A stretch of 64,000 nucleotides of DNA from an uncultured Candidatus Saccharibacteria bacterium (GTDB lineage: Bacteria; Patescibacteriota; Saccharimonadia; Saccharimonadales; EFPC-124), in contig CBDDBE010000001.1 of the NCBI GenBank assembly GCA_965225085.1, forward strand, positions 129,641 to 193,640. The letters are read 5' to 3'. Numbering within the stretch: the first letter of the stretch is position 1; each line of letters starts with the position of its first letter. Shown here in pieces: positions 39,769 to 48,813 of the stretch. Position numbers and translations under genes: made by a program. The notes beneath the pieces were generated by a model, which was not told the origin of the DNA, ran no database searches, and saw only the letters and a program-made list of their open reading frames with translations.

Positions 39769-42171
39769 TTAGCGTAGAGCAGCCTCTACATCCGCCGCGG
39801 TTATATCTACCACGCTGCCGGGCATAACTTCGCCCGTGAGCATACGCCTTGCCAAAATATCCTCGATGCTACGCTGCGCTACCCGACGCATAGGGCGGGC
39901 GCCTAGTCGCGGGTCATAACCGGCTACGACCAGCATCTTCTTGGCTTCGTCAGCGACGTGCACGGTAATCTTTTGTGAGGCCAATGTTGTATTAATGCTA
40001 GCAATTATGAGGTCAACTACCTGCAGCAGTTCACCGGGTTCGAGCGGCCTGAACACCACCGTCTCGTCAAACCGGTTAAGGAATTCGGGTTTGAACTGCC
40101 CAGAATCTATTAGTTCACTCACAAACTTCTGCTCGAATTGCTCGGGCTTCCAGCCAGCCTCGATGTACTGACGGATGCGATCAGCGCCAGCGTTACTGGT
40201 GGCGATCACAATTGCATCCCGGAAGCTAACCACGCGGTTGTGTTCATCGCGCAGAATGCCTTCATCGAGGAGCTGTAGCAGAGTGTTCAAAACGTTCGGA
40301 TGGGCTTTCTCGATTTCGTCCAGCAGCACTACGCTGAATGGCTGCTTGGTGATCTGTGCCGACAAGCTCCCTTGGTCGTGCGCGCCATCGGCAATTAACC
40401 GCGACACATCCTCGGGCCGGGAATACTCGTTCATGTCGAGGCGAATCAAGTGGTCCTCGCCGCCAAAGTACGCTGCCGAGAGCGCCTTGCTCAGCTCGGT
40501 CTTGCCCACTCCTGTCGGACCGAGGAATAGGAAGGTACCAATGGGACGATTCTGGTTGCGCACACCGGCTCGTGCCCGCCTAAGTGCATTACTCACGACG
40601 CTCACTGCGCGGGTCTGGTTAATCATACGCTGATGGATCAACTGCTCTAAGTTCAAAAGCTTCTCCCGCTCGTCGGCGGCATTGGCCCGACCCAGCCGAA
40701 CACCGTAGCCTTTTTCGACCGCTTGCTGCACCGACGCTTCCGTCACCAGCCCGCTATTCGCATGCCGTGCGGCAGCCTCCAGCACGCCAATCGCCTGGCC
40801 CGGCATTGCCTGGTCCTGAACGTAGCGTTCGCCGAGCCTATATGCCTCCAGCAGCGCTTGGTACATATACGTCACTTTGCTATGGAATTCCATCAGGAGA
40901 AGTTGATCCTCTAGGACCAGTAAGGCGTCTTCCTTGCCCAGTGGCGGCACGCTGATTCGATTCATATGCTGAAGTAACGCCGGATTGGCCTGTCCCAGTT
41001 GCAGCCACTGTTGTTCGTCCATCGCCATAATAACTCGTAGGCCACTGCCGTCCAGAATCGGAAGCAAAATATTACTGAGGTCAACCGATCCGGTTCCGTC
41101 CTGCAGGAACAGTTGTGCATCATCCAGGAAGACCACGACGTTTTTGGCATTCAGCGCCTCGGCAAATATGCGCTGCACCAGATTCTCCAGATCACCCCGG
41201 CCATGTGCCTGCGCGATAAGCCTGGTGGGGTCGATCGCCATAACCTGACTATACCGCAAGCCAGCAGGTACATCGGGGGTTGGGTTGATAAACCGCTCGG
41301 CCAGCGCATACACCAAGGTAGTCTTGCCCACGCCCGTTGACCCAACCAACGCTGCGTTTTGCTTGCCACCATTCGAGAGCAGGCTCGCCATCTGGCCTAG
41401 TATTTCCTGATGCCCTTCGATATCCCGCGTGAGTAGTCCCCCGGCCACGCTTTCCGAAACATTCAACGCAAAATGGCTAAGAAGTGGTGTATAGCCAAAT
41501 GCCCAATCCCGACCAATGCCGCCTGTCGGCTTTCTGGTTGCGTGCGCTCGGACAACATGCTGGATGTGCTGATACCAGCCGAGTCCAGCCTCGATGTCCT
41601 CCATACCCAGCTGCAAGCGCGCCAACAGCTGGTCACGCTCGGGAATTTGCTCGATCAACGCCGTGAATATGATAGCTGCATCGATGCTTGGAGCCTGATA
41701 CTTTTGCTGCAGCTCCAGGGCTCGCTTCCATAGTATGCTCATATCATCGGGTACATGACCGCTCATCTCGGTTAAAAAGTTTGGCCCCACGCCAAACCGC
41801 GCCGCAAAAAATAACCCGCCACTCAATCCCATCACGACTTCAGCGAGCTCGCGAGGTGAGGGCTTCGAGCTCAAACGCCCCAGCAGGTCGCTTTTGAGTT
41901 GGCCATCCATGGTCGGTTCGGCCTGGTGACCGATCGGAATATCAGCCAGCTCATATCGATGCCATAGCAGAACCATCAGTGGCCACAACGAAAATGCTGC
42001 GATAATCGCACCCGCTGGCAGCCTGGCGGCAAACACCATCCCTGCCCCAACCAGGAATATCAGGAGAACCGCGGCCATTACCGCATACCGCGGCAGTCGC
42101 CCGCCCAGGAGCACCCCTAGCCGTGCTTTACGTGCCCGCGGCGAATCGTATCGAAAAATCTGTTCACTCAT
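39769..42171 (-). CDS. Membrane-anchored double-AAA+ Clp/Hsp100-like ATPase
   Basis: ATG 42171 (MSEQIF..) overlaps the upstream stop (ATGA). Two N-terminal TM helices and a Clp_N-like segment. D1 has GSTGVGKTT plus VVVFLDDAQ. D2 has GPTGVGKTE plus VVLLDEIEKAH. No M-domain and no IG[FL] ClpP loop seen. Confidence 0.8.
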   Translation of the reverse strand: MSEQIFRYDSPRARKARLGVLLGGRLPRYAVMAAVLLIFLVGAGMVFAARLPAGAIIAAFSLWPLMVLLWHRYELADIPIGHQAEPTMDGQLKSDLLGRLSSKPSPRELAEVVMGLSGGLFFAARFGVGPNFLTEMSGHVPDDMSILWKRALELQQKYQAPSIDAAIIFTALIEQIPERDQLLARLQLGMEDIEAGLGWYQHIQHVVRAHATRKPTGGIGRDWAFGYTPLLSHFALNVSESVAGGLLTRDIEGHQEILGQMASLLSNGGKQNAALVGSTGVGKTTLVYALAERFINPTPDVPAGLRYSQVMAIDPTRLIAQAHGRGDLENLVQRIFAEALNAKNVVVFLDDAQLFLQDGTGSVDLSNILLPILDGSGLRVIMAMDEQQWLQLGQANPALLQHMNRISVPPLGKEDALLVLEDQLLLMEFHSKVTYMYQALLEAYRLGERYVQDQAMPGQAIGVLEAAARHANSGLVTEASVQQAVEKGYGVRLGRANAADEREKLLNLEQLIHQRMINQTRAVSVVSNALRRARAGVRNQNRPIGTFLFLGPTGVGKTELSKALSAAYFGGEDHLIRLDMNEYSRPEDVSRLIADGAHDQGSLSAQITKQPFSVVLLDEIEKAHPNVLNTLLQLLDEGILRDEHNRVVSFRDAIVIATSNAGADRIRQYIEAGWKPEQFEQKFVSELIDSGQFKPEFLNRFDETVVFRPLEPGELLQVVDLIIASINTTLASQKITVHVADEAKKMLVVAGYDPRLGARPMRRVAQRSIEDILARRMLTGEVMPGSVVDITAADVEAALR

Positions 42172-42539
42172 TGCTGCAACCCCGTCACAACAAACACCAC
42201 GACCAGCGGCATCACCGGCACAAACGGCCACAGCGCCAACAGCGCCGCAGCCACAATTGCCATCAGTAGCGTTGCAACCAAACCAAACAGTATCACGGCC
42301 AACCGCACCATGGCGCCGATCCCTCTAGAGATTTGTCGATCAGCCCAGGCACGCATCTGCGTATCCAACGAACCGCGTACTTTGCCCGCGGAGATCTGCC
42401 GAAATGGCGCAAATAGGCTCCCTGCCAGCATCCCGACCGAAAAGAACTCTAGTACGCCAGCAACGCGCAGCACCGAGCGACGCGCCAACTGGGCCCACCC
42501 AGCGGTGTACCACCACGACAGAAGTGAGACAACAAGCAT
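42168..42539 (-). CDS. Small polytopic membrane protein translationally coupled to the AAA+ gene
   Basis: 123 aa with 3-4 TM helices. Its TGA stop overlaps the ATG of 39769..42171. Confidence 0.6.
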   Translation of the reverse strand: MLVVSLLSWWYTAGWAQLARRSVLRVAGVLEFFSVGMLAGSLFAPFRQISAGKVRGSLDTQMRAWADRQISRGIGAMVRLAVILFGLVATLLMAIVAAALLALWPFVPVMPLVVVFVVTGLQQ

Positions 42540-43246: not shown

Positions 43247-43279
43247 TGCCCGCAGTTGCGCTCAAAGCAACTGCGGGCA
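43247..43279. terminator. Bidirectional terminator hairpin
   Basis: Perfect 13-bp stem tgcccgcagttgc / gcaactgcgggca with a 7-nt loop, between convergent genes. Confidence 0.75.
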
Positions 43280-43297: not shown

Positions 43298-45934
43298 CTA
43301 TTTCTTCACTACTACGCTCAACGGCGTGCGTTGGTCAGACTGACCCAACGGATTGTCACCAAAGATATCTTCAAATAGCTTTTCTGGCTGCCCGGTGTTT
43401 TGGCCGAGCACATTACGACCAATGTCGTTACTGTCTATCACAACCACACCTTTAAAATGCTCCGTAGTGGCGGTGGGCAAGGCTACACGAATCACGTCAG
43501 TCAACTGCCGTGCAACCTTATCTGGGTCTTTGGGCGCAAGCTTGGCGCTGACGTTGCTGGGGTAGACCGAATATTCTGTCGGACCGTCGATGGCACGAAT
43601 GTCACTCCCCACCAGATTGTAGAATGTGCCACGCCTGCCAACCATCTTGCCCAACGCTCCGCCAACAGATGCGTACAATATCCGCAGCAAGCCCACCTCC
43701 TGAATCGCCAATTGCATAGTCCATGGGCTACCGAGGCCAATGCCATACGGTGTCTTGGTCACCCGACGGCTGAGGAACCGCGCCCACCAACCAGGCGTAA
43801 TGTCCCACACAAAGTAGCTGCGGCCCTGGGTAATCGCGACAATCTTCTCGCTTATTAGGAGGTACCAGTCGTGCGTGGCGTAACTCGCCTGCTGCGTGTC
43901 GGCGCCCAGAGCGTCAAAGAATTTCTGCAAGCGCGTGGTGACAAATTCCTGTAAATTATCTTTGGCGCTCACCATGTCGGTACGGAGCGGATAGCGGCGG
44001 TACTCTGCGTCGCCGACGCGTATGTCTAGCTCTTTACCCTCGTTTGGCTCAAGCTCGCCCTTCTCGTGCACAGGTTTATCATCCTTCTCGTCAAAAAATT
44101 CACGCAACCACAGCTCTACATTCAGGAACCGCCAATACAGCAGGCTATTACTGTCGTTCTTGCCCTTGATAAACCCTTCGAATGCTTCAGCAACGGCAGC
44201 CGCGTCCCAATACGGACGAGAAACGAAACTCTCACTTAGGAAGATCCCATAAAAACGATTCTTCAGGCGCATAAACCACTCGTGCTCTGGCGTTGTAAAG
44301 CCAATCTTGTTCCGTCGGCGATTGATCATAGGTGGTAGCAGATCACGAGTAGCATCACGCAGAATCCGCTTGTTCCAGCCGCCCTTTATGATCGACTCGT
44401 CATCCAGTGCAAACAGGAACTTCAAAACGTCCTTGTCTAGGAACGGCACCCGGCCTTCCAGGCTAAAGCGCATGGTATTCTTGTCCTCGTAACGTAGCAG
44501 CGACGGCAAGCTATTGCTAAAGGTGTCCTCAATGAGCCGAAGCTTGAGGTTGTCTGACGTGACGACGAACTTCTCGGCGGCGAACTTCTTGCTAAAATCC
44601 TGGCTGATGAGCCGGGCAACAGGTATCGACTTCCTACGAAGCAACCGCCCCGCAAGGTTTACCCGCGCAAACCTATAAAAGATATCGACGCTGCTCAGCA
44701 CCTCGCGGATCAGTGCACCCCATTGGCCTCGAGTTTTCAACTGGCGCAGATACACAAAATAATATGGTACATACCCAGCCATCGTCTCATCCGCGCCTTG
44801 GCCATCCAGCAGCACCGTCACGTGCTTGGTCGCCTCCTCCATGACCTTGTACTGCGCGTACGGACCGGTGCTGATCAGCGGCTCTTCCTGCGTACGGATA
44901 AAATCCTCCAGATCGTTCACAAATGCGTCTGCATCGGGCTTGATCTTGTGCGCCGTTACACTATCGCCAACCCGCTCCAGCAGCGAATCGACGTACGCCT
45001 CCTCGTCATTTTGACTGCCCGGGAAGATGGCGCTAAAGGTGTTTTGACGCGCGCCAACAGAGATAGTTGCGTCGTGATCGTCCTTCATCAGCTGGTTAAT
45101 AACCGCCACGACCGTCGAGCTATCAAGCCCACCAGAAAAGCTCGTGCCGACCGGCACTTCACTCTGCAGACGCAAACGAACTGCCTGGGTGAGGCGCTGC
45201 TTGTACTCAGCGGCAACATCGGCGTCGTACGGATGATTTTCGCTACTCAGTCGCTTGAGGTCGGCCTTCAGCATAGTGTAACTACTGAGCTTTTCACCCT
45301 CGTCGCTGAGCTCGAGAACTTCGCCAGGCATCAGCTTCGTGATACCGTCGAAGAACGTTTCCGGGCTGTCTTCGTGGATGCGAAATCGCAAATAGCGATA
45401 AATACTGCGATCGTTAGGTTTCTTGGCGACCAAGCCAGTTGCAAGCAATGGCTTGATCTCTGAGGCAAATAGCAGTTGACCTTTGGCGGGGCGAGCCATA
45501 TACAGCGGTTTGATGCCAAAATGGTCGCGAGCCAGGACCAGCTTGCCGGCTTTGCGGTCGTGAATAGCCAGCGCGAACATGCCGTTTAGCTTGTCAAACG
45601 CGGCGATACCCCAGGTCGCGTAGGCCTGCAAGACCACCTCAGTATCTGACTGGGTCAAAAATTCACAGCCCACAGCCTCTAGCTCTTTGCGAAGCTCCAG
45701 ATAGTTGTAGACTTCACCGTTATAGATGATGACGTGCGACTTGTCCTTGGTATACAGCGGCTGAATACCGTGCTCGCGGTCGATAATAGCTAGCCGCAGC
45801 TGGGCTAGGCCTACTCGGCCGTCAACGTAATATCCCTCACCGTCCGGCCCCCGATGGGCCTGCGCTGCATTCATGGATCTGAGGAGTTTTTCAGAGCCGT
45901 CATCAAGATTGTAGTAGCCAGCAATTCCGCACAT
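43298..45934 (-). CDS. Asparagine synthase (glutamine-hydrolysing)-type amidotransferase fused to a CofE / F420-0:gamma-glutamyl-ligase-like C-terminal domain
   Basis: 878 aa. N-terminus MCGIAGY (Ntn Cys), PP-loop ..SFSGGLDSS.. . The last ~250 aa contain ..LLISEKIVAITQGRSYF.., ..IRAIDGP..LAPKDPDKVA.., ..VVVIDSNDIGRNVLG.. resembling CofE blocks. Confidence 0.75.
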   Translation of the reverse strand: MCGIAGYYNLDDGSEKLLRSMNAAQAHRGPDGEGYYVDGRVGLAQLRLAIIDREHGIQPLYTKDKSHVIIYNGEVYNYLELRKELEAVGCEFLTQSDTEVVLQAYATWGIAAFDKLNGMFALAIHDRKAGKLVLARDHFGIKPLYMARPAKGQLLFASEIKPLLATGLVAKKPNDRSIYRYLRFRIHEDSPETFFDGITKLMPGEVLELSDEGEKLSSYTMLKADLKRLSSENHPYDADVAAEYKQRLTQAVRLRLQSEVPVGTSFSGGLDSSTVVAVINQLMKDDHDATISVGARQNTFSAIFPGSQNDEEAYVDSLLERVGDSVTAHKIKPDADAFVNDLEDFIRTQEEPLISTGPYAQYKVMEEATKHVTVLLDGQGADETMAGYVPYYFVYLRQLKTRGQWGALIREVLSSVDIFYRFARVNLAGRLLRRKSIPVARLISQDFSKKFAAEKFVVTSDNLKLRLIEDTFSNSLPSLLRYEDKNTMRFSLEGRVPFLDKDVLKFLFALDDESIIKGGWNKRILRDATRDLLPPMINRRRNKIGFTTPEHEWFMRLKNRFYGIFLSESFVSRPYWDAAAVAEAFEGFIKGKNDSNSLLYWRFLNVELWLREFFDEKDDKPVHEKGELEPNEGKELDIRVGDAEYRRYPLRTDMVSAKDNLQEFVTTRLQKFFDALGADTQQASYATHDWYLLISEKIVAITQGRSYFVWDITPGWWARFLSRRVTKTPYGIGLGSPWTMQLAIQEVGLLRILYASVGGALGKMVGRRGTFYNLVGSDIRAIDGPTEYSVYPSNVSAKLAPKDPDKVARQLTDVIRVALPTATTEHFKGVVVIDSNDIGRNVLGQNTGQPEKLFEDIFGDNPLGQSDQRTPLSVVVKK

Positions 45935-45984: not shown

Positions 45985-46017
45985 AAAATAAACGTGCCCC
46001 AGCCTTTCGGCTGGGGC
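45985..46017 (-). terminator. Rho-independent terminator
   Basis: gccccagcc-tttc-ggctggggc 9-bp stem. On the minus strand it is followed by a T-rich run (plus-strand aaaataaa at 45985-45992). Confidence 0.7.
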
Positions 46018-46023
46018 GGCGGC

Positions 46024-46266
46024 TCACGTGTGGCCATAGTCTCCGGCGACGTTCCAGAACCTGTCGGCGGCGATGTCGCCAGCCGCCCAGCCCGCCAGAT
46101 AGCACGAGTCTTCAGATTGCGGCTCGCGACCCTCGCGGCCGTCCTGTGCACCCTGTTTCCAAATCCGCATTGCCGCCTCATGCGCCGCACCATCAAGCAG
46201 GTCCGGGCAGTAGTCGAAGTGCAGATCGTTGCCGCGGCGACACCGCAGGCAGTATTCGTCCATCAT
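46024..46266 (-). CDS. Rmf/CrpP-like small GC-rich protein
   Basis: ATG 46266/46263 after aaagggg. ..HEAAMRIWKQGAQDGREGREPQSEDSCYLAGWAAG.. fits the G-x-x-(A/D)G...C/P...(W)LxGW pattern of ribosome-modulation-factor/CrpP-type proteins. Confidence 0.45.
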   Translation of the reverse strand: MMDEYCLRCRRGNDLHFDYCPDLLDGAAHEAAMRIWKQGAQDGREGREPQSEDSCYLAGWAAGDIAADRFWNVAGDYGHT

Positions 46267-46339
46267 AGCCCCTTTAAGGAGAAACTGCTCGCCTTCGTGA
46301 ACTTTCAAGATAGAAGAATACTATAATTCAGTATATATG

Positions 46340-48742
46340 TCAATGTCCTAATGTTTTATCACCAGGCAGTGTAATCGCGCTTGCTGGGACACTTGGATCC
46401 GACACATTGCCAGCAGCATCAATCGCCGCAACGGTGTAACTGTAGGTCGTGAGCGGCGTCAGGCCCGTGTCCGTGTAGGTTGTGGTAGGTGCCGTAGCCA
46501 CCAGCTTACCGTCACGGTATACGCGGTAACCCGTCACACCCACATTGTCAGTACTGGCCGTCCATTGTAGGCTCGCGCCGGTCGCGGTCGTACCCGTTAC
46601 CACTAGCCCTGTGGGTGCACTTGGCGCGGTCGCGTCCGGCTGAACCTGAGAAGGAGGGGCGGTTGGGCTCGTGTAGTTTGAGTTGTCTGCAGGCTTTTGC
46701 TCGACCTGGTTGCAGGTCTTGGTCGGTAGCGTGCCCGCTAGGAAATATTCGGTGTAGGTATTGTCACCTGCGGCCTGGGCTAGCGCCCCGTCTGCGCGGC
46801 AAGTGTCGTGAGATACGACCGTCGAAGGCTGCACAAACTTCTCAATTGTAGCCCCAGTTAGCAACTGCCTCATCAGGCTCAGCCAAATCGGACCCGATCC
46901 ACTCGCGCCAGCAACGGCGCTCATAGGCGTGTTGTCGTTGTTGCCAATCCACACCCCAATCGCCAAGCTAGGCGTGTACCCAATAGTCCAGGCGTCGCGA
47001 TAATCGTCGGTCGTTCCGGTCTTCACGGCGACAGGGCGATTAGCCGCAACGGTGAGGCTGCTGCCAAATATTTCGGCTCGGGCGCTGTTGTCTGACAGGA
47101 TCGAGCTGATAATAAAGGCCGTCCCAGGGCTGAATACCGTATTCGCAGCTGGCTGCTCCTTGTAAATTTCGTTCTTGTTCTTGTCGGTGATGCTCATAAC
47201 TAGCTGGGTAGCATGACGTTGGCCTTGGTTTGCAAACGCCGTGTACGCACCTGTCATCTCTAGCAAATCCGCCTGGCCACTGCCCAGAGCTAACGGCAGG
47301 CCGTACTGATCAGCTGTTTGCGTCAATGTAGTAATGCCAGCCTGCTTGGCCTTGTCCAGGACCGCCTGCACGCCGATTTTCTGCATTGCCTCGACGGCCG
47401 GAATATTCAGCGAGTTGGACAGCGCACGGCGCAGCGTCACATCTCCGCGATACTTTAGATCGTAATCCTTTGGCTGGTATCCATCAAAGTTCTGTGGCGT
47501 ATCCGAGAAGATAGTCGCGCCAGTCATCAGGCGATTCTCGATACCTGTCGCGTACATAATTGGTTTGAACGACGAACCCGGCTGCCGCGTGGTGGTCACC
47601 ATGTTGACTTTGCCGAACTGGTCGTTACCCCAGTCGACGCTGCCAACCAACGCCAGCACCTCACCCGACTTTGGGTCTACGATGACGGCGCTGCCATTGG
47701 TAACCTTGCTGTAACGCAAGTTTGTGATTTGCTTCTGGACGGCTGCCTCAGCCTTGGACTGGTCGCCCAGATCGAGCGTTGTCTTCACTACATATCCCGA
47801 CCTCGCCACGGTCTCTTCGCCATATTTGTCATCGAGCCACTGCTTGACCATCAACGCAAAGTGCGGTGCTGTCGGCGATGCGTTTACCTTCGGCGGCTGG
47901 TACGATAATTGCTCGGCTAACGCTGACGATTGCTGGTCTTTGGCAATCACGCCATCGGTCTGCATGCGACCCAGCACATACGTTTGGCGCTCCTTGGCCT
48001 TCTGGGCGTCACCCGAGATTGGCGAATAGGCGCTTGGCGCTGGCAACAGACCAATGAGCATAGCCGCCTGCGCCGTATCCAGATCCTTCGCCGACTTGCC
48101 AAAATACGTATGCGCCGCGTCTTCTATGCCAAACGCGCCCTCGCCAAAATAGACCGAGTTGAGATACATCTCGAGAATCTCGTCCTTACTATAGCGCCGC
48201 TCCACCTCTATAGACAGGATCAGCTCCTGGTATTTACGAAAGATGCTACGGTTCTGGCTCAACAAAGCATTTTTGACCAGCTGCTGCGTGATGGTTGACC
48301 CGCCGCCGCCACTGCCAGCGTGGATAATGTTCTGATAAAATGCATTTGCTATGCCCACAGGCGAGAAGCCCGGATGGCTATAAAAGTCCTTGTCCTCGGA
48401 TGAAATCGTCGCTTTCTGCGCAATTGGCGCAATATCCTTCAGCTGCACATACGTGTTGGAATGCGCGTTGTTGAACTCGTAATAGGCCTTGCCATTGCGA
48501 TCCTCCAGCGTCACGCCAGTGTTGTTGCGGTTCATTAGTGCGTCCTTGCTGCCCAGCGAGCCAGCGAATGAAATCGTCGTAATAACCGCGACGAACAGTA
48601 GCACCAGGAAGGTCGGCCAGGCTATGACAAAAATCTTCTTCCACAGTGAAAGCTGGCGAAACTTCGCAAGAAGGTTGGTGCTACGACTTGATTTTCGATA
48701 GGAACGACGAGGAGAAGCTCGTCGCGTGGATGACTTTTTCAT
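46340..48742 (-). CDS. Class A penicillin-binding protein (transglycosylase/transpeptidase) with C-terminal fibronectin type III domain
   Basis: ATG 48742 (MKKSSTRR..) lies downstream of the NUDIX terminator. GT51 motifs ..EDKDFYSHPGFS.., ..GGSTITQQLVKN.. . TPase motifs ..SSFKP.., ..SNS.., ..KTGTT.. . FN3: ..PTGLVVTG..LQWTAS..GVTGYRVYRDG.. . Confidence 0.9.
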   Translation of the reverse strand: MKKSSTRRASPRRSYRKSSRSTNLLAKFRQLSLWKKIFVIAWPTFLVLLFVAVITTISFAGSLGSKDALMNRNNTGVTLEDRNGKAYYEFNNAHSNTYVQLKDIAPIAQKATISSEDKDFYSHPGFSPVGIANAFYQNIIHAGSGGGGSTITQQLVKNALLSQNRSIFRKYQELILSIEVERRYSKDEILEMYLNSVYFGEGAFGIEDAAHTYFGKSAKDLDTAQAAMLIGLLPAPSAYSPISGDAQKAKERQTYVLGRMQTDGVIAKDQQSSALAEQLSYQPPKVNASPTAPHFALMVKQWLDDKYGEETVARSGYVVKTTLDLGDQSKAEAAVQKQITNLRYSKVTNGSAVIVDPKSGEVLALVGSVDWGNDQFGKVNMVTTTRQPGSSFKPIMYATGIENRLMTGATIFSDTPQNFDGYQPKDYDLKYRGDVTLRRALSNSLNIPAVEAMQKIGVQAVLDKAKQAGITTLTQTADQYGLPLALGSGQADLLEMTGAYTAFANQGQRHATQLVMSITDKNKNEIYKEQPAANTVFSPGTAFIISSILSDNSARAEIFGSSLTVAANRPVAVKTGTTDDYRDAWTIGYTPSLAIGVWIGNNDNTPMSAVAGASGSGPIWLSLMRQLLTGATIEKFVQPSTVVSHDTCRADGALAQAAGDNTYTEYFLAGTLPTKTCNQVEQKPADNSNYTSPTAPPSQVQPDATAPSAPTGLVVTGTTATGASLQWTASTDNVGVTGYRVYRDGKLVATAPTTTYTDTGLTPLTTYSYTVAAIDAAGNVSDPSVPASAITLPGDKTLGH

Positions 48743-48772
48743 CAGTGCCTTTATAATACCACTTCCGGCCGT

Positions 48773-48806
48773 AAAAAAATCGCCCTGGGTCGCTACAACC
48801 CAGGGC
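48773..48806 (-). terminator. Rho-independent terminator of the NUDIX gene
   Basis: gccctggg / cccagggc 8-bp stem followed on the minus strand by a 7-T run (plus-strand A-run 48773-48779). Confidence 0.7.
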
Positions 48807-48813
48807 ACTGTGA

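What the first reader, a model, noticed from the sequence alone, without database searches (positions are those of the whole stretch)
43298..45934. Asparagine-synthase-type amidotransferase fused to a CofE (gamma-glutamyl ligase)-like domain, next to the class A PBP
Seen: residues 1 to ~620 form an AsnB-type enzyme (MCGIAGY Ntn nucleophile; SFSGGLDSS PP-loop). The C-terminal ~250 residues contain blocks resembling the CofE/F420-0:gamma-glutamyl ligase fold (..LLISEKIVAITQGRSYF.., ..IRAIDGP..LAPKDPDKVARQL.., ..GVVVIDSNDIGRNVLG..). The gene lies one small ORF away from the PBP1A gene.

Established: AsnB paralogs amidate peptidoglycan stem peptides in several Gram-positive bacteria, and CofE-family enzymes add gamma-linked glutamates.

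Inference: this is a bifunctional amidation and gamma-glutamyl-ligation enzyme acting on a cell-envelope or cofactor substrate. I do not recognise the architecture as a characterised one.
Basis: partly seen in the sequence, partly recalled or inferred. Interest (0 to 1): 0.55.

Follow-up and report, generated by a model that had tools for sequence, protein, structure and literature searches.

The report
Amidotransferase–ligase fusion that replaces MurT/GatD
This gene really does fuse an asparagine-synthase-type amidotransferase to a distant relative of the F420 glutamate ligase, and across two phyla it sits where related genomes carry murT-gatD, so it is probably an unstudied alternative enzyme for modifying the D-glutamate of the cell-wall peptide.

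Summary
The gene is one uninterrupted 878-aa ORF at 43298-45934, on the minus strand. It joins an intact AsnB-type amidotransferase to a 240-residue CofE-fold domain (Z 13.8 to PDB 2PHN).

It does not serve F420. The genome lacks CofD and CofH, and F420-making hosts keep a separate FbiB.

The PBP1A neighbour is not conserved. The informative neighbour is the ClpC-like gene downstream.

New here: the fusion and MurT/GatD (lipid II isoglutaminyl synthase) exclude each other.
- In one actinobacterial family, 34 genomes have only the CofE-like gene, 59 only MurT, 1 has both (weak) and 7 have neither.
- In a Saccharimonadia family, 0 of 11 fusion genomes have MurT, against 48 of 55 others.

The fusion also occupies the same chromosomal slot as murT-gatD in close relatives, in both phyla.

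Intrasporangium calvum carries the fusion and lacks MurT. Its wall is reported to bear glycine on the alpha-carboxyl of D-Glu.

Best reading (about 0.6): a non-homologous replacement of MurT/GatD acting on that carboxyl. Which domain does which step is inferred, and no biochemistry exists.

Earlier agents of this scan found the fusion on other DNA. None reported the MurT displacement.

The parts
43298..45934 (-). whole gene: 878-aa AsnB-type amidotransferase fused to a CofE-fold domain (stop codon at 43298-43300)
   Evidence: full-length model pLDDT 88.3, pTM 0.79
45335..45934 (-). N-terminal Ntn glutaminase domain (residues 1-200), with the Cys2 nucleophile and R47, N72-G73-E74, D97
   Evidence: Pfam GATase_6/7. 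These residues are kept in at least 38 of 39 full-length relatives; Cys2, G73, E74 and D97 in all 39
44102..45205 (-). PP-loop synthetase domain (residues 244-611)
   Evidence: Pfam Asn_synthase 9e-62; TIGR01536 410 bits against a cut-off of 267; closest solved relatives 7YLZ and 1CT9
45116..45142 (-). PP-loop motif SFSGGLDSS (residues 265-273)
   Evidence: SGGLDS is invariant in 39/39 fused relatives and degenerate in 5 of 7 short variants
44786..44812 (-). motif LLDGQGADE (residues 375-383). Gln379 stands where E. coli AsnB has Glu348, and Asp377 where it has Ser346
   Evidence: alignment to 1CT9; invariant in 39/39; the separate AsnB of Flexivirga keeps S-G-E
44027..44101 (-). charged linker (residues 612-636)
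   Evidence: no secondary structure in the model
43301..44026 (-). divergent CofE-fold domain (residues 637-878)
43820..43852 (-). motif SEK..QGR (residues 695-705), aligned to the (S/T)SKxxSKAxGR block of CofE/FbiB
   Evidence: E696, K697 and R705 are at least 90% conserved in the wider family
43724..43744 (-). family-specific glycine-rich loop GIGLGSP (residues 731-737), inside an insertion of about 45 residues that CofE lacks
   Evidence: invariant in alignment A1; unaligned to FbiB in hhalign
43580..43591 (-). IDGP (residues 782-785). D783 aligns with the Asp of the (A/V)GIDxSN block of FbiB/CofE
   Evidence: hhalign; at least 90% conserved
43415..43438 (-). IDSNDIGR (residues 833-840). 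D834 aligns with the Asp of the D-T-x-G-R block of CofE/FbiB
   Evidence: D834 is at least 90% conserved
43322..43357 (-). C-terminal signature DNPLGQ..TP (residues 860-871), the most conserved block of the family
   Evidence: used as the search pattern
45996..46017 (-). terminator-like hairpin between the upstream small ORF/PBP1A unit and this gene
   Evidence: 9-bp stem with 8 G-C pairs, followed by a T run
43247..43279 (.). 13-bp-stem hairpin 19 nt after the stop codon
42168..42539 (-). small membrane-protein gene overlapping the start of the ClpC-like gene; part of the conserved flank
   Evidence: 39% identical to L212_8; homologues in L004, L005 and L009 are membrane-like and overlap the AAA+ gene
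39769..42231 (-). ClpC-like AAA+ gene. This conserved neighbour marks the slot that holds murT-gatD in related genomes
   Evidence: 50-54% identical over its full length to the genes flanking murT-gatD (L211_11, L214_6, L218_8) and the fusion (L212_7, L213_11, L215_7)
46340..48808 (-). class A PBP (transglycosylase + transpeptidase + fn3). It is a neighbour only and not a conserved partner

Best explanation
The gene encodes a cytoplasmic enzyme of three modules:
- an Ntn glutaminase;
- a PP-loop (adenylating) synthetase;
- a stripped-down CofE-fold ligase, a fold whose known members make an amide bond through an NTP-derived acyl phosphate.

It is a non-homologous substitute for the MurT/GatD lipid II isoglutaminyl synthase. 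It modifies the free alpha-carboxyl of the D-iso-glutamate at position 2 of the peptidoglycan stem peptide, on a cytoplasmic precursor.

Shown: the domain identities, the mutual exclusion with MurT/GatD, and the replacement at the same locus.

Inferred: the chemistry. Two versions fit the data about equally well.
(a) The CofE-fold domain ligates an amino acid to that carboxyl. Glycine is the example, as reported for the wall of Intrasporangium calvum. The AsnB half then amidates the new carboxyl with glutamine-derived ammonia, which restores the neutral charge that D-iso-glutamine gives.
(b) The enzyme simply makes D-iso-glutamine. One activating domain does the chemistry, and the other binds the precursor or helps in some other way.
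For: 1. Mutual exclusion within one actinobacterial family (family of G002, 101 genomes). 35 genomes are CofE-like-positive and 60 are MurT_C-positive. Only one has both (G982, a weak 34.5-bit MurT_C match) and 7 have neither. Fisher p = 8e-19, overstated because relatives are not independent.

2. Mutual exclusion in Saccharimonadia family f2.
- 11 fusion-positive genomes in 9 genera; none has MurT.
- 48 of 56 sampled f2 genomes have MurT. Seven of the eight without it belong to one genus, g3; the eighth is the fusion carrier G180.
- In four genera (g41, g9, g38, g27), MurT-positive/fusion-negative species sit beside MurT-negative/fusion-positive ones.

3. Further fusion genomes.
- 0 of 21 reached through loci have MurT.
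- 0 of 17 in an order-wide sample have it, against 66 of 184 others.
- 15 of 16 named Actinomycetota lack it.

4. The window's own genome (98% complete) has MurC plus three more Mur ligases. It has no MurT_C and no GatD-type GATase_3.

5. Same slot in Saccharimonadia.
- In genus g27, murT-gatD lies between a ClpC-like gene and a 160-aa gene. In a congener the fusion lies between the orthologues of both.
- Genus g38 shows the same slot: in G777 between the orthologues of both flanks, in G727 next to the ClpC-like orthologue. In genus g41 it sits beside an ABC-2 pair, on one flank only.
- The window's ClpC-like gene is the orthologue of that flank.

6. Same slot in Actinomycetales. MurT genomes read guaA ... 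murT-gatD-LPG_synthase_TM-GT4-NUDIX. Fusion genomes read guaA-FUSION-LPG_synthase_TM-GT4-NUDIX.

7. MurT-positive congeners have no AsnB-family gene at all, so the whole fusion trades places with murT+gatD.

8. Intrasporangium calvum carries the fusion (L028) and lacks MurT. [quoted passage not shown]

9. CofE chemistry is amide-bond formation between a carboxylate and an amino-acid amine through an acyl phosphate (PMC10861534). MurT is said to resemble the substrate-binding domains of Mur ligases (PMC3267633 abstract). That it uses the same acyl-phosphate logic is my own knowledge, not read here.

10. Stand-alone and AsnB-dead forms keep every invariant residue of the CofE-fold domain. The stand-alone carriers also lack MurT.
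Against: - There is no biochemical or muropeptide evidence for any member.
- Phyletic complementarity and shared position show an alternative relationship to MurT/GatD, not the reaction itself.
- Many genomes lack both genes: genus g3, families f3-f17 of the window's own order, and two thirds of the Actinomycetales sample. The window's family f1 has no MurT-bearing member in the sample, so in this particular genome the replacement is inferred from relatives.
- One fusion genome (G982) has a weak MurT_C match.
- An earlier first-reader note (e1-2268235) reports a different, ~389-aa CofE-like gene next to murT-gatD. Exclusion may therefore hold only for this subfamily.
- An AsnB-type enzyme alone could amidate a carboxyl, so the need for a third module is unexplained.
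- The synthetase site has Gln where E. coli AsnB has Glu348.
- The chemotaxonomic report for I. calvum comes from the type strain, while the genome tested is another strain of the species.
Confidence: 0.6

Rival explanations
1. The enzyme modifies another position of the cell-wall precursor, such as the diamino acid or a cross-bridge residue, as the AsnB-type enzymes LtsA, AsnB1 and AsnH do. That modification would make D-iso-Glu amidation dispensable or incompatible, which would produce the exclusion with MurT/GatD indirectly.
For: AsnB paralogues amidate meso-DAP in Listeria and Bacillus (PMC8554201 and PMC5485061, listed). The fusion is the only AsnB-family gene in G000, Terrabacter and Schaalia.
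Against: MurT-positive Saccharimonadia congeners have no AsnB gene, so no DAP-amidating function is being conserved. Replacement at the very murT-gatD position in two phyla is more simply explained by the same target. Carriers have different diamino acids: LL-DAP in Intrasporangium, while the others (meso-DAP, L-Lys, Orn) rest on my own knowledge.
Confidence: 0.13
2. It makes a soluble small molecule, for example an amidated di- or oligopeptide such as a compatible solute, thiol or signal. It would be unrelated to peptidoglycan, and the pattern with MurT would come from shared ancestry and a recombination hot spot.
For: The gene is monocistronic, with hairpins on both sides. Its neighbours vary across lineages. 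Relatives are fused to GNAT, M20 peptidase and peroxiredoxin domains. An integrase lies nearby in G792.
Against: This would not explain why 94 of 101 genomes of one family have exactly one of the two genes. It would also not explain why the same exchange recurs in at least 3 genera of a second phylum at the same slot.
Confidence: 0.12
3. It is a genuine asparagine synthetase carrying an extra regulatory or oligomerisation domain.
For: It scores above the TIGR01536 cut-off and is the only AsnB-family gene in the genome.
Against: It is present in only 2 of 201 genomes of the class. The catalytic Glu348 position is Gln in all 39 relatives. Variants with a dead AsnB half keep the C-terminal domain intact. 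The C-terminal domain is the best-conserved part of the protein.
Confidence: 0.04
4. It glutamylates coenzyme F420 or another flavin-type cofactor.
For: Fold and weak sequence likeness to CofE.
Against: The 98%-complete genome has no CofD or CofH. Dermatophilaceae that carry the fusion also have a normal FbiB scoring 111-155 bits. The C-terminal part of CofE, which holds the deazaflavin-stacking Arg234, has no counterpart: the alignment ends at CofE residue 221 of 248. The stretch between the D-x-x-G-R block and the C-terminal block is about 30 residues shorter than in FbiB.
Confidence: 0.01

Closest known systems
MurT/GatD, lipid II isoglutaminyl synthase (S. aureus, S. pneumoniae, M. tuberculosis; PMC3266927, PMC3267633, PMC6085368, PMC6113224)
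   Same: Same logic: a glutaminase plus an NTP-dependent carboxylate-activating ligase. It is distributed as the alternative to this gene and occupies the same chromosomal slot in relatives.
   Different: No homology. MurT is a Mur-ligase fold with a MurT_C domain, and GatD is a triad (CobB/CobQ-type) glutaminase. Here there is an Ntn glutaminase, a PP-loop synthetase and a CofE fold in one chain, so there are two potential activating domains instead of one. The product is untested.
CofE / N-terminal domain of FbiB (F420-0:gamma-glutamyl ligase; PF01996; PDB 2PHN, 2G9I, 7ULD)
   Same: Same fold (Z 13.8). The blocks (S/T)xK..GR, IDxx and D-x-x-G-R are collinear, and two aspartates align with CofE/FbiB aspartates.
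   Different: 19% identity, just under the Pfam cut-off. It has an extra N-terminal hairpin with PNxGK, an insertion of about 45 residues with GIGLGxP, and a shortened region after the G-R block. There is no counterpart of the C-terminal Arg234 segment. It occurs in genomes without F420 genes.
AsnB-type peptidoglycan amidotransferases (LtsA of Corynebacterium; AsnB of B. subtilis and Listeria; AsnB1 of L. plantarum)
   Same: Cys2 Ntn glutaminase plus PP-loop synthetase, and a proposed cell-wall precursor substrate.
   Different: Those enzymes are two-domain proteins of about 630 aa acting on meso-DAP. This family adds the CofE-fold domain and has D-G-Q in place of S-G-E at the E. coli Glu348 position.
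TsnB9 hydroxyamidotransferase (PDB 7YLZ)
   Same: Best sequence match among solved structures for the AsnB half (168 bits).
   Different: It is a natural-product enzyme that keeps the S-G-E motif and has no CofE-fold domain.

Membership tests
AsnB-type (class II, Ntn) glutamine amidotransferase / PP-loop synthetase | N-terminal Cys nucleophile directly after Met1, with the glutaminase residues (Arg, Asn-Gly-Glu, Asp) | tested here: met
   The protein starts MCGIAGY. C2, G73, E74 and D97 are conserved in 39/39 fused relatives, and R47 and N72 in 38/39
AsnB-type (class II, Ntn) glutamine amidotransferase / PP-loop synthetase | PP-loop SGGxDS | tested here: met
   SGGLDS at residues 267-272, conserved in 39/39
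AsnB-type (class II, Ntn) glutamine amidotransferase / PP-loop synthetase | family HMMs above their curated cut-offs | tested here: met
   PF00733 210 bits; TIGR01536 410 bits against 267
Asparagine synthetase B proper (makes Asn from Asp) | the glutamate at the E. coli Glu348 position (S-G-E-G-S-D-E) | tested here: not met
   D-G-Q-G-A-D-E, with Gln379 invariant in 39/39. That this Glu is catalytic is my own knowledge
Asparagine synthetase B proper (makes Asn from Asp) | aspartate-dependent asparagine formation | not testable with these tools
   needs an enzyme assay
CofE / FbiB-N (PF01996, F420:glutamate ligase) | Pfam model above the gathering score | tested here: inconclusive
   24.5 bits against 25 on the protein; 26.6 bits in the six-frame genome search. 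Stand-alone relatives reach 55 bits
CofE / FbiB-N (PF01996, F420:glutamate ligase) | CofE fold | tested here: met
   Foldseek E 4e-8; VIA Z 13.8 with the next hit at 5.5
CofE / FbiB-N (PF01996, F420:glutamate ligase) | acidic residues of the metal/NTP site | tested here: inconclusive
   D783 and D834 align with the Asp of the GIDxSN and D-T-x-G-R blocks. No conserved acid is found where I expect the third ligand. The ligand numbering rests on memory
CofE / FbiB-N (PF01996, F420:glutamate ligase) | elements that hold the deazaflavin (C-terminal Arg234 segment, long hairpin) | tested here: not met
   The structural alignment ends at CofE residue 221 of 248 at the model's last residue. The region after the G-R block is about 30 residues shorter. 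Roles are taken from PMC10861534
CofE / FbiB-N (PF01996, F420:glutamate ligase) | F420 pathway present in the genome | tested here: not met
   No CofD (TIGR01819) or CofH (TIGR03551) in G000 at 98% completeness. Carriers that make F420 have a separate FbiB
MurT/GatD lipid II isoglutaminyl synthase (as homologue) | Mur_ligase_M + MurT_C and a GATase_3 partner | tested here: not met
   None of these domains is in the protein. G000 has no MurT_C or GATase_3
MurT/GatD lipid II isoglutaminyl synthase (as functional analogue) | complementary distribution and the same genomic position | tested here: met
MurT/GatD lipid II isoglutaminyl synthase (as functional analogue) | modification of the D-iso-Glu alpha-carboxyl of lipid II | not testable with these tools
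   needs muropeptide MS or an in vitro assay

The most novel reading that the evidence does not exclude
The CofE-fold domain is the unidentified ligase that attaches glycine, or another amino acid, to the alpha-carboxyl of D-glutamate in peptidoglycan. This would account for the walls with Gly on D-Glu, as reported for Intrasporangium, and possibly the first step of the group B cross-bridge in Microbacterium. The fused AsnB half then converts the added residue to its amide. Together they would form a two-step pathway that replaces MurT/GatD and has moved between Saccharibacteria and Actinomycetota, the phylum of their known hosts.
Probability: 0.3. Interest if true: 0.85.

Novelty: new variant of a known kind. 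Interest (0 to 1): 0.72.

Why it matters
Modification of the D-iso-glutamate carboxyl is needed for peptidoglycan cross-linking in Gram-positive bacteria. MurT/GatD is essential where it has been studied and is discussed as a drug target.

If this reading holds, a second, unrelated enzyme fills that role in hundreds of species. These include Dermatophilaceae/Intrasporangiaceae, Actinomycetaceae and ultra-small Saccharibacteria.

Three consequences follow:
- It would give a gene to wall chemotypes that have been known from chemistry for decades but have no assigned enzyme, such as glycine on the alpha-carboxyl of D-Glu.
- It would give the CofE fold a first function outside F420 biosynthesis.
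- It would correct a widespread 'asparagine synthase' / 'F420 ligase' annotation.

The exchange of the gene between Saccharibacteria and Actinomycetota also raises a question: does the epibiont's wall chemistry track that of its hosts?

The prediction is directly testable with muropeptide mass spectrometry on cultured, harmless strains.

Tried and rejected
- PBP1A adjacency as a functional clue. It is not conserved in 80 related loci and a terminator-like hairpin intervenes. A class A PBP lies next to stand-alone homologues in only 3 of 55 metagenome loci, convergently oriented.
- F420 role. Rejected.
- Operon partners of the fusion. Neighbours vary between lineages: enolase/DivIC, an NrtR-like Nudix regulator in 2 loci, DUF1846, a sensor kinase. 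The Nudix genes of the window and of Dermatophilaceae are unrelated.
- Operon partners of stand-alone forms in metagenomes. None dominates. The most frequent is Lgt in 7 of 55 loci, otherwise housekeeping genes.
- A Pup-like tagging system (small protein + ligase + AAA+). Dropped, because the small protein is a membrane protein coupled to the ClpC-like gene.
- Anti-phage defence. No PADLOC match for the protein.
- Recent horizontal transfer into this genome. The gene's GC content of 54% equals the window mean.
- A relic of murT/gatD in the window. None at E < 0.1.
- Literature. No paper in the held library describes the architecture or an AsnB-type replacement of MurT/GatD. Nothing was found on Microbacterium wall chemistry.
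Contexts came from the search for related loci, the genome search and the fetch from genomes instead.
- Five unpublished genomes (G433, G410, G427, G435, G439) were left out of the FbiB profile.
Full report
OBSERVATION. The coordinates hold one open frame on the minus strand (43298-45934). It encodes 878 aa, starts MCGIAGY and has no internal stop; the plus strand is closed. Pfam finds GATase_7 at 46-165, Asn_synthase at 244-611 (9e-62) and F420_ligase PF01996 at 650-835 with 24.5 bits against a cut-off of 25. NCBIfam TIGR01536 scores 410 bits against 267. The fusion is not an artefact. 1051 fused proteins of 482-1537 aa match the C-terminal part, and 486 species-representative genomes encode a relative. 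A terminator-like hairpin lies upstream of the gene (46017-45996) and a 13-bp hairpin after its stop (43247-43279). The gene therefore looks like its own transcription unit.

THE AsnB HALF. In 39 full-length relatives Cys2, G73, E74, D97 and the PP-loop SGGLDS are invariant, and R47 and N72 are kept in 38. The site is atypical, however. Where E. coli AsnB has S346-G-E348, this family has D377-G-Q379 in 39 of 39. The separate, ordinary AsnB of Flexivirga keeps S-G-E. The best solved relative is the hydroxyamidotransferase 7YLZ, followed by 1CT9. Seven shorter variants (537-786 aa) lack Cys2 and most have a degenerate PP-loop, yet they keep every invariant residue of the C-terminal domain.

THE C-TERMINAL DOMAIN. 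Several tests agree that it is a divergent CofE relative.
- The family is modest in size: 669 representatives at E <= 1e-3 in a library clustered at 50% identity.
- Stand-alone members of about 230 aa bridge to PF01996 with up to 55 bits.
- A family profile finds A. fulgidus CofE in the PDB at 3e-7.
- hhalign against an FbiB N-domain profile gives 95.8% probability over 175 columns.
- A pLDDT-95 model matches only CofE: Foldseek E 4e-8 with the next hit at 0.26; VIA-align Z 13.8, rmsd 3.1 A, 181 residues, next hit Z 5.5.
- The blocks SEK..QGR, IDGP and IDSNDIGR are collinear with (S/T)SK..SKAxGR, GIDxSN and D-T-x-G-R of CofE/FbiB.
- The family adds an N-terminal hairpin (PNxGK) and an insertion of about 45 residues (GIGLGxP..TMQLAI).
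- It is about 30 residues shorter after the G-R block.
- It ends at the equivalent of CofE residue 221 of 248. It therefore lacks the segment with Arg234 that stacks on the deazaflavin.

NOT F420. The window's genome is 1.08 Mb and 98% complete. It has no CofD and no CofH, and PF01996 matches only this gene. Flexivirga, Terrabacter, Oryzobacter and Knoellia carry a normal FbiB (111-155 bits) beside the fusion, whereas Schaalia has only the fusion.

DISTRIBUTION.
- The gene is rare in the window's class: 2 of 201 genomes.
- It occurs in 11 of 401 genomes (9 genera) of the large family f2.
- It is common in one actinobacterial family: 35 of 101 genomes.
- In a FastTree of 82 proteins the Dermatophilaceae/Intrasporangiaceae/Dermacoccaceae sequences form one clade.
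- Patescibacteria sequences are mixed with Coriobacteriia, Catenulispora and two 'Gammaproteobacteria' MAGs. Gleimia and Schaalia (Actinomycetaceae) form a separate pair outside that clade.
- The tree therefore shows both vertical descent and transfer between phyla.
- The gene's GC content equals that of the window.

NEIGHBOURS. PBP1A (46340-48808) is not a conserved partner. In Patescibacteria the recurrent neighbour is a small membrane-protein gene overlapping a ClpC-like AAA+ gene. In Dermatophilaceae the order is guaA-FUSION-LPG_synthase_TM(opposite strand)-GT4-NUDIX. Taken alone these neighbours said nothing about function.

MUTUAL EXCLUSION WITH MurT/GatD. I tested whether the gene might stand in for the known D-iso-Glu amidating enzyme.
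- MurT_C (PF08353) is found in 153 of 201 genomes of the class, but not in G000 or G180, the two fusion carriers.
- G000 also lacks GatD-type GATase_3. It does have MurC and three more Mur ligases.
- In family f2, 48 of 56 genomes have MurT. Seven of the eight without it belong to one genus, g3; the eighth is the fusion carrier G180.
- All 11 fusion carriers of f2 lack MurT. Fisher p = 3e-8.
- In four genera, MurT-positive/fusion-negative species stand beside MurT-negative/fusion-positive species.
- Twenty-one further carriers reached through loci all lack MurT.
- In an order-wide actinobacterial sample, 0 of 17 carriers have MurT against 66 of 184 others.
- Fifteen of 16 named carriers lack it.
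- In the family of Terrabacter, 34 genomes have only the CofE-like gene, 59 only MurT, 1 both (G982, weak 34.5 bits) and 7 neither. Fisher p = 8e-19.
- Relatives are not independent, so these p-values are overstated. The pattern nevertheless recurs in two phyla and many genera.

SAME CHROMOSOMAL SLOT.
- Genus g27: G197 reads [ClpC-like]-[murT]-[gatD]-[162 aa]. G755 reads [160 aa orthologue]-[FUSION]-[ClpC-like orthologue].
- Genus g38: G164 and G179 hold murT-gatD in that slot. G777 holds an AsnB gene plus a separate CofE-like gene there. G727 holds FUSION-small membrane gene-ClpC-like, exactly as in the window.
- Genus g41: gatD-murT of G174 and the fusion of G792 abut the same ABC-2 transporter pair, on one flank only. 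An integrase gene lies nearby in G792.
- The window's ClpC-like gene is 50-54% identical over its full length to these flanks.
- Actinomycetales: six of ten MurT genomes examined show murT-gatD within about 0.2-5 kb of LPG_synthase_TM-GT4-NUDIX. Four of these also show guaA on the other side within the fetched stretch. This is the position the fusion holds in Knoellia, Intrasporangium and their kin.
- MurT-positive Saccharimonadia congeners have no AsnB-family gene, so the entire fusion trades places with murT+gatD.
- No relic of murT or gatD is left in the window.

LINK TO WALL CHEMISTRY. Intrasporangium calvum carries the fusion (L028) and lacks MurT. [quoted passage not shown] That is the carboxyl MurT/GatD amidates (PMC3266927). 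Attaching an amino acid to a carboxylate is the reaction type of CofE (PMC10861534).

The stand-alone form is found in Microbacterium and in 22 of 151 Microbacteriaceae. There it follows a sigma-70 gene and lies beside an ATP-grasp ligase, an alanine-racemase-family gene and an M17 peptidase. From my own knowledge, not from a tool, that family cross-links its wall through the alpha-carboxyl of D-Glu.

MECHANISM.
- Shown: the three modules, intact catalytic motifs in the glutaminase and PP-loop parts, a conserved CofE-like active-site core, and the alternative relationship to MurT/GatD.
- Inferred: the target is the D-iso-Glu alpha-carboxyl of a cytoplasmic precursor.
- Version (a): the CofE-fold domain forms an acyl phosphate and adds glycine or another amine. 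The AsnB half then amidates the new carboxyl with glutamine-derived ammonia and restores neutrality. This version explains the three modules and the stand-alone forms where the added residue is extended instead.
- Version (b): the enzyme simply forms D-iso-glutamine.
- I cannot separate the two versions.

RIVALS. An indirect effect through another wall position is possible (0.13). Synthesis of a soluble product (0.12), true asparagine synthesis (0.04) and F420 work (0.01) fit the data poorly.

WHAT IS KNOWN. The library searches found no description of this architecture or of an AsnB-type substitute for MurT/GatD. Earlier agents of this scan confirmed the fusion on other genomes, and some suspected a cell-wall role from neighbours. 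None reported the MurT/GatD exclusion or the shared slot.

CAVEATS.
- There is no experiment on any member.
- Many genomes have neither gene.
- One genome has a weak double match.
- MAG incompleteness affects some absences.
- Family labels for the actinobacterial handles were not available.

Noticed in passing
window 46024-46308 (-): A small ORF lies between PBP1A and the fusion. It is 64.6% GC against 54% for the window, has a Cys-rich N-terminus (C..C....C pattern), gives no Pfam match and is followed by the terminator-like hairpin.
   Followed up: partly
window 39769-42539 (-): A ClpC-like AAA+ protein has a 250-residue N-terminal region without any Pfam match. It is translationally coupled to a small membrane protein. 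The pair is conserved in Saccharimonadia, and the AAA+ part matches the PADLOC models DolB and PDC-M37B (104 and 77 bits).
   Followed up: partly
L090 6613-11437; also L091-L093 (Microbacterium genomes): A stand-alone CofE-like gene overlaps the end of a sigma-70 gene by 4 nt. Beside it lie a convergent ATPgrasp_ST ligase, an alanine-racemase-family gene and an M17 peptidase. This is a candidate gene set for the group B cross-bridge. An earlier agent (e1-4229923) reached a similar idea.
   Followed up: partly
L213 7849-10351 (G777): Here the AsnB part (606 aa) and the CofE-like part (236 aa) are two overlapping ORFs in the murT-gatD slot. This is either a natural split form or a frameshift.
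   Followed up: no
proteins P0092, P0096, P0103, P0107, P0116, P0119: These variants of 537-786 aa have an N-terminal half that has lost Cys2 and the PP-loop aspartate. Their CofE-like domain stays 56-61% identical to the window's.
   Followed up: partly
proteins P0183, P0170, P0121: The same CofE-like domain is fused to an M20 peptidase, to a GNAT acetyltransferase and, judging from its N-terminal sequence only, to a peroxiredoxin-like domain.
   Followed up: partly
G982 (Fodinibacter luteus, locus L053): This is the only carrier with a MurT_C match. The match is weak (34.5 bits, in a 445-aa frame), which suggests a remodelled MurT-like paralogue.
   Followed up: no
L210 6462-7163 (G792): A phage-integrase-family gene lies about 0.8 kb from the fusion, at the edge of the block that is syntenic with the murT-gatD genome G174. 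This hints at how the exchange happened.
   Followed up: no
L076 6990-7910 and L079: An NrtR-like regulator (Nudix + winged helix) lies directly upstream of the fusion in two actinobacterial MAGs.
   Followed up: no
genus g3 and families f3-f17 of the window's order: Whole lineages of these ultra-small bacteria have neither MurT nor the fusion. How they treat the D-Glu carboxyl is open.
   Followed up: no
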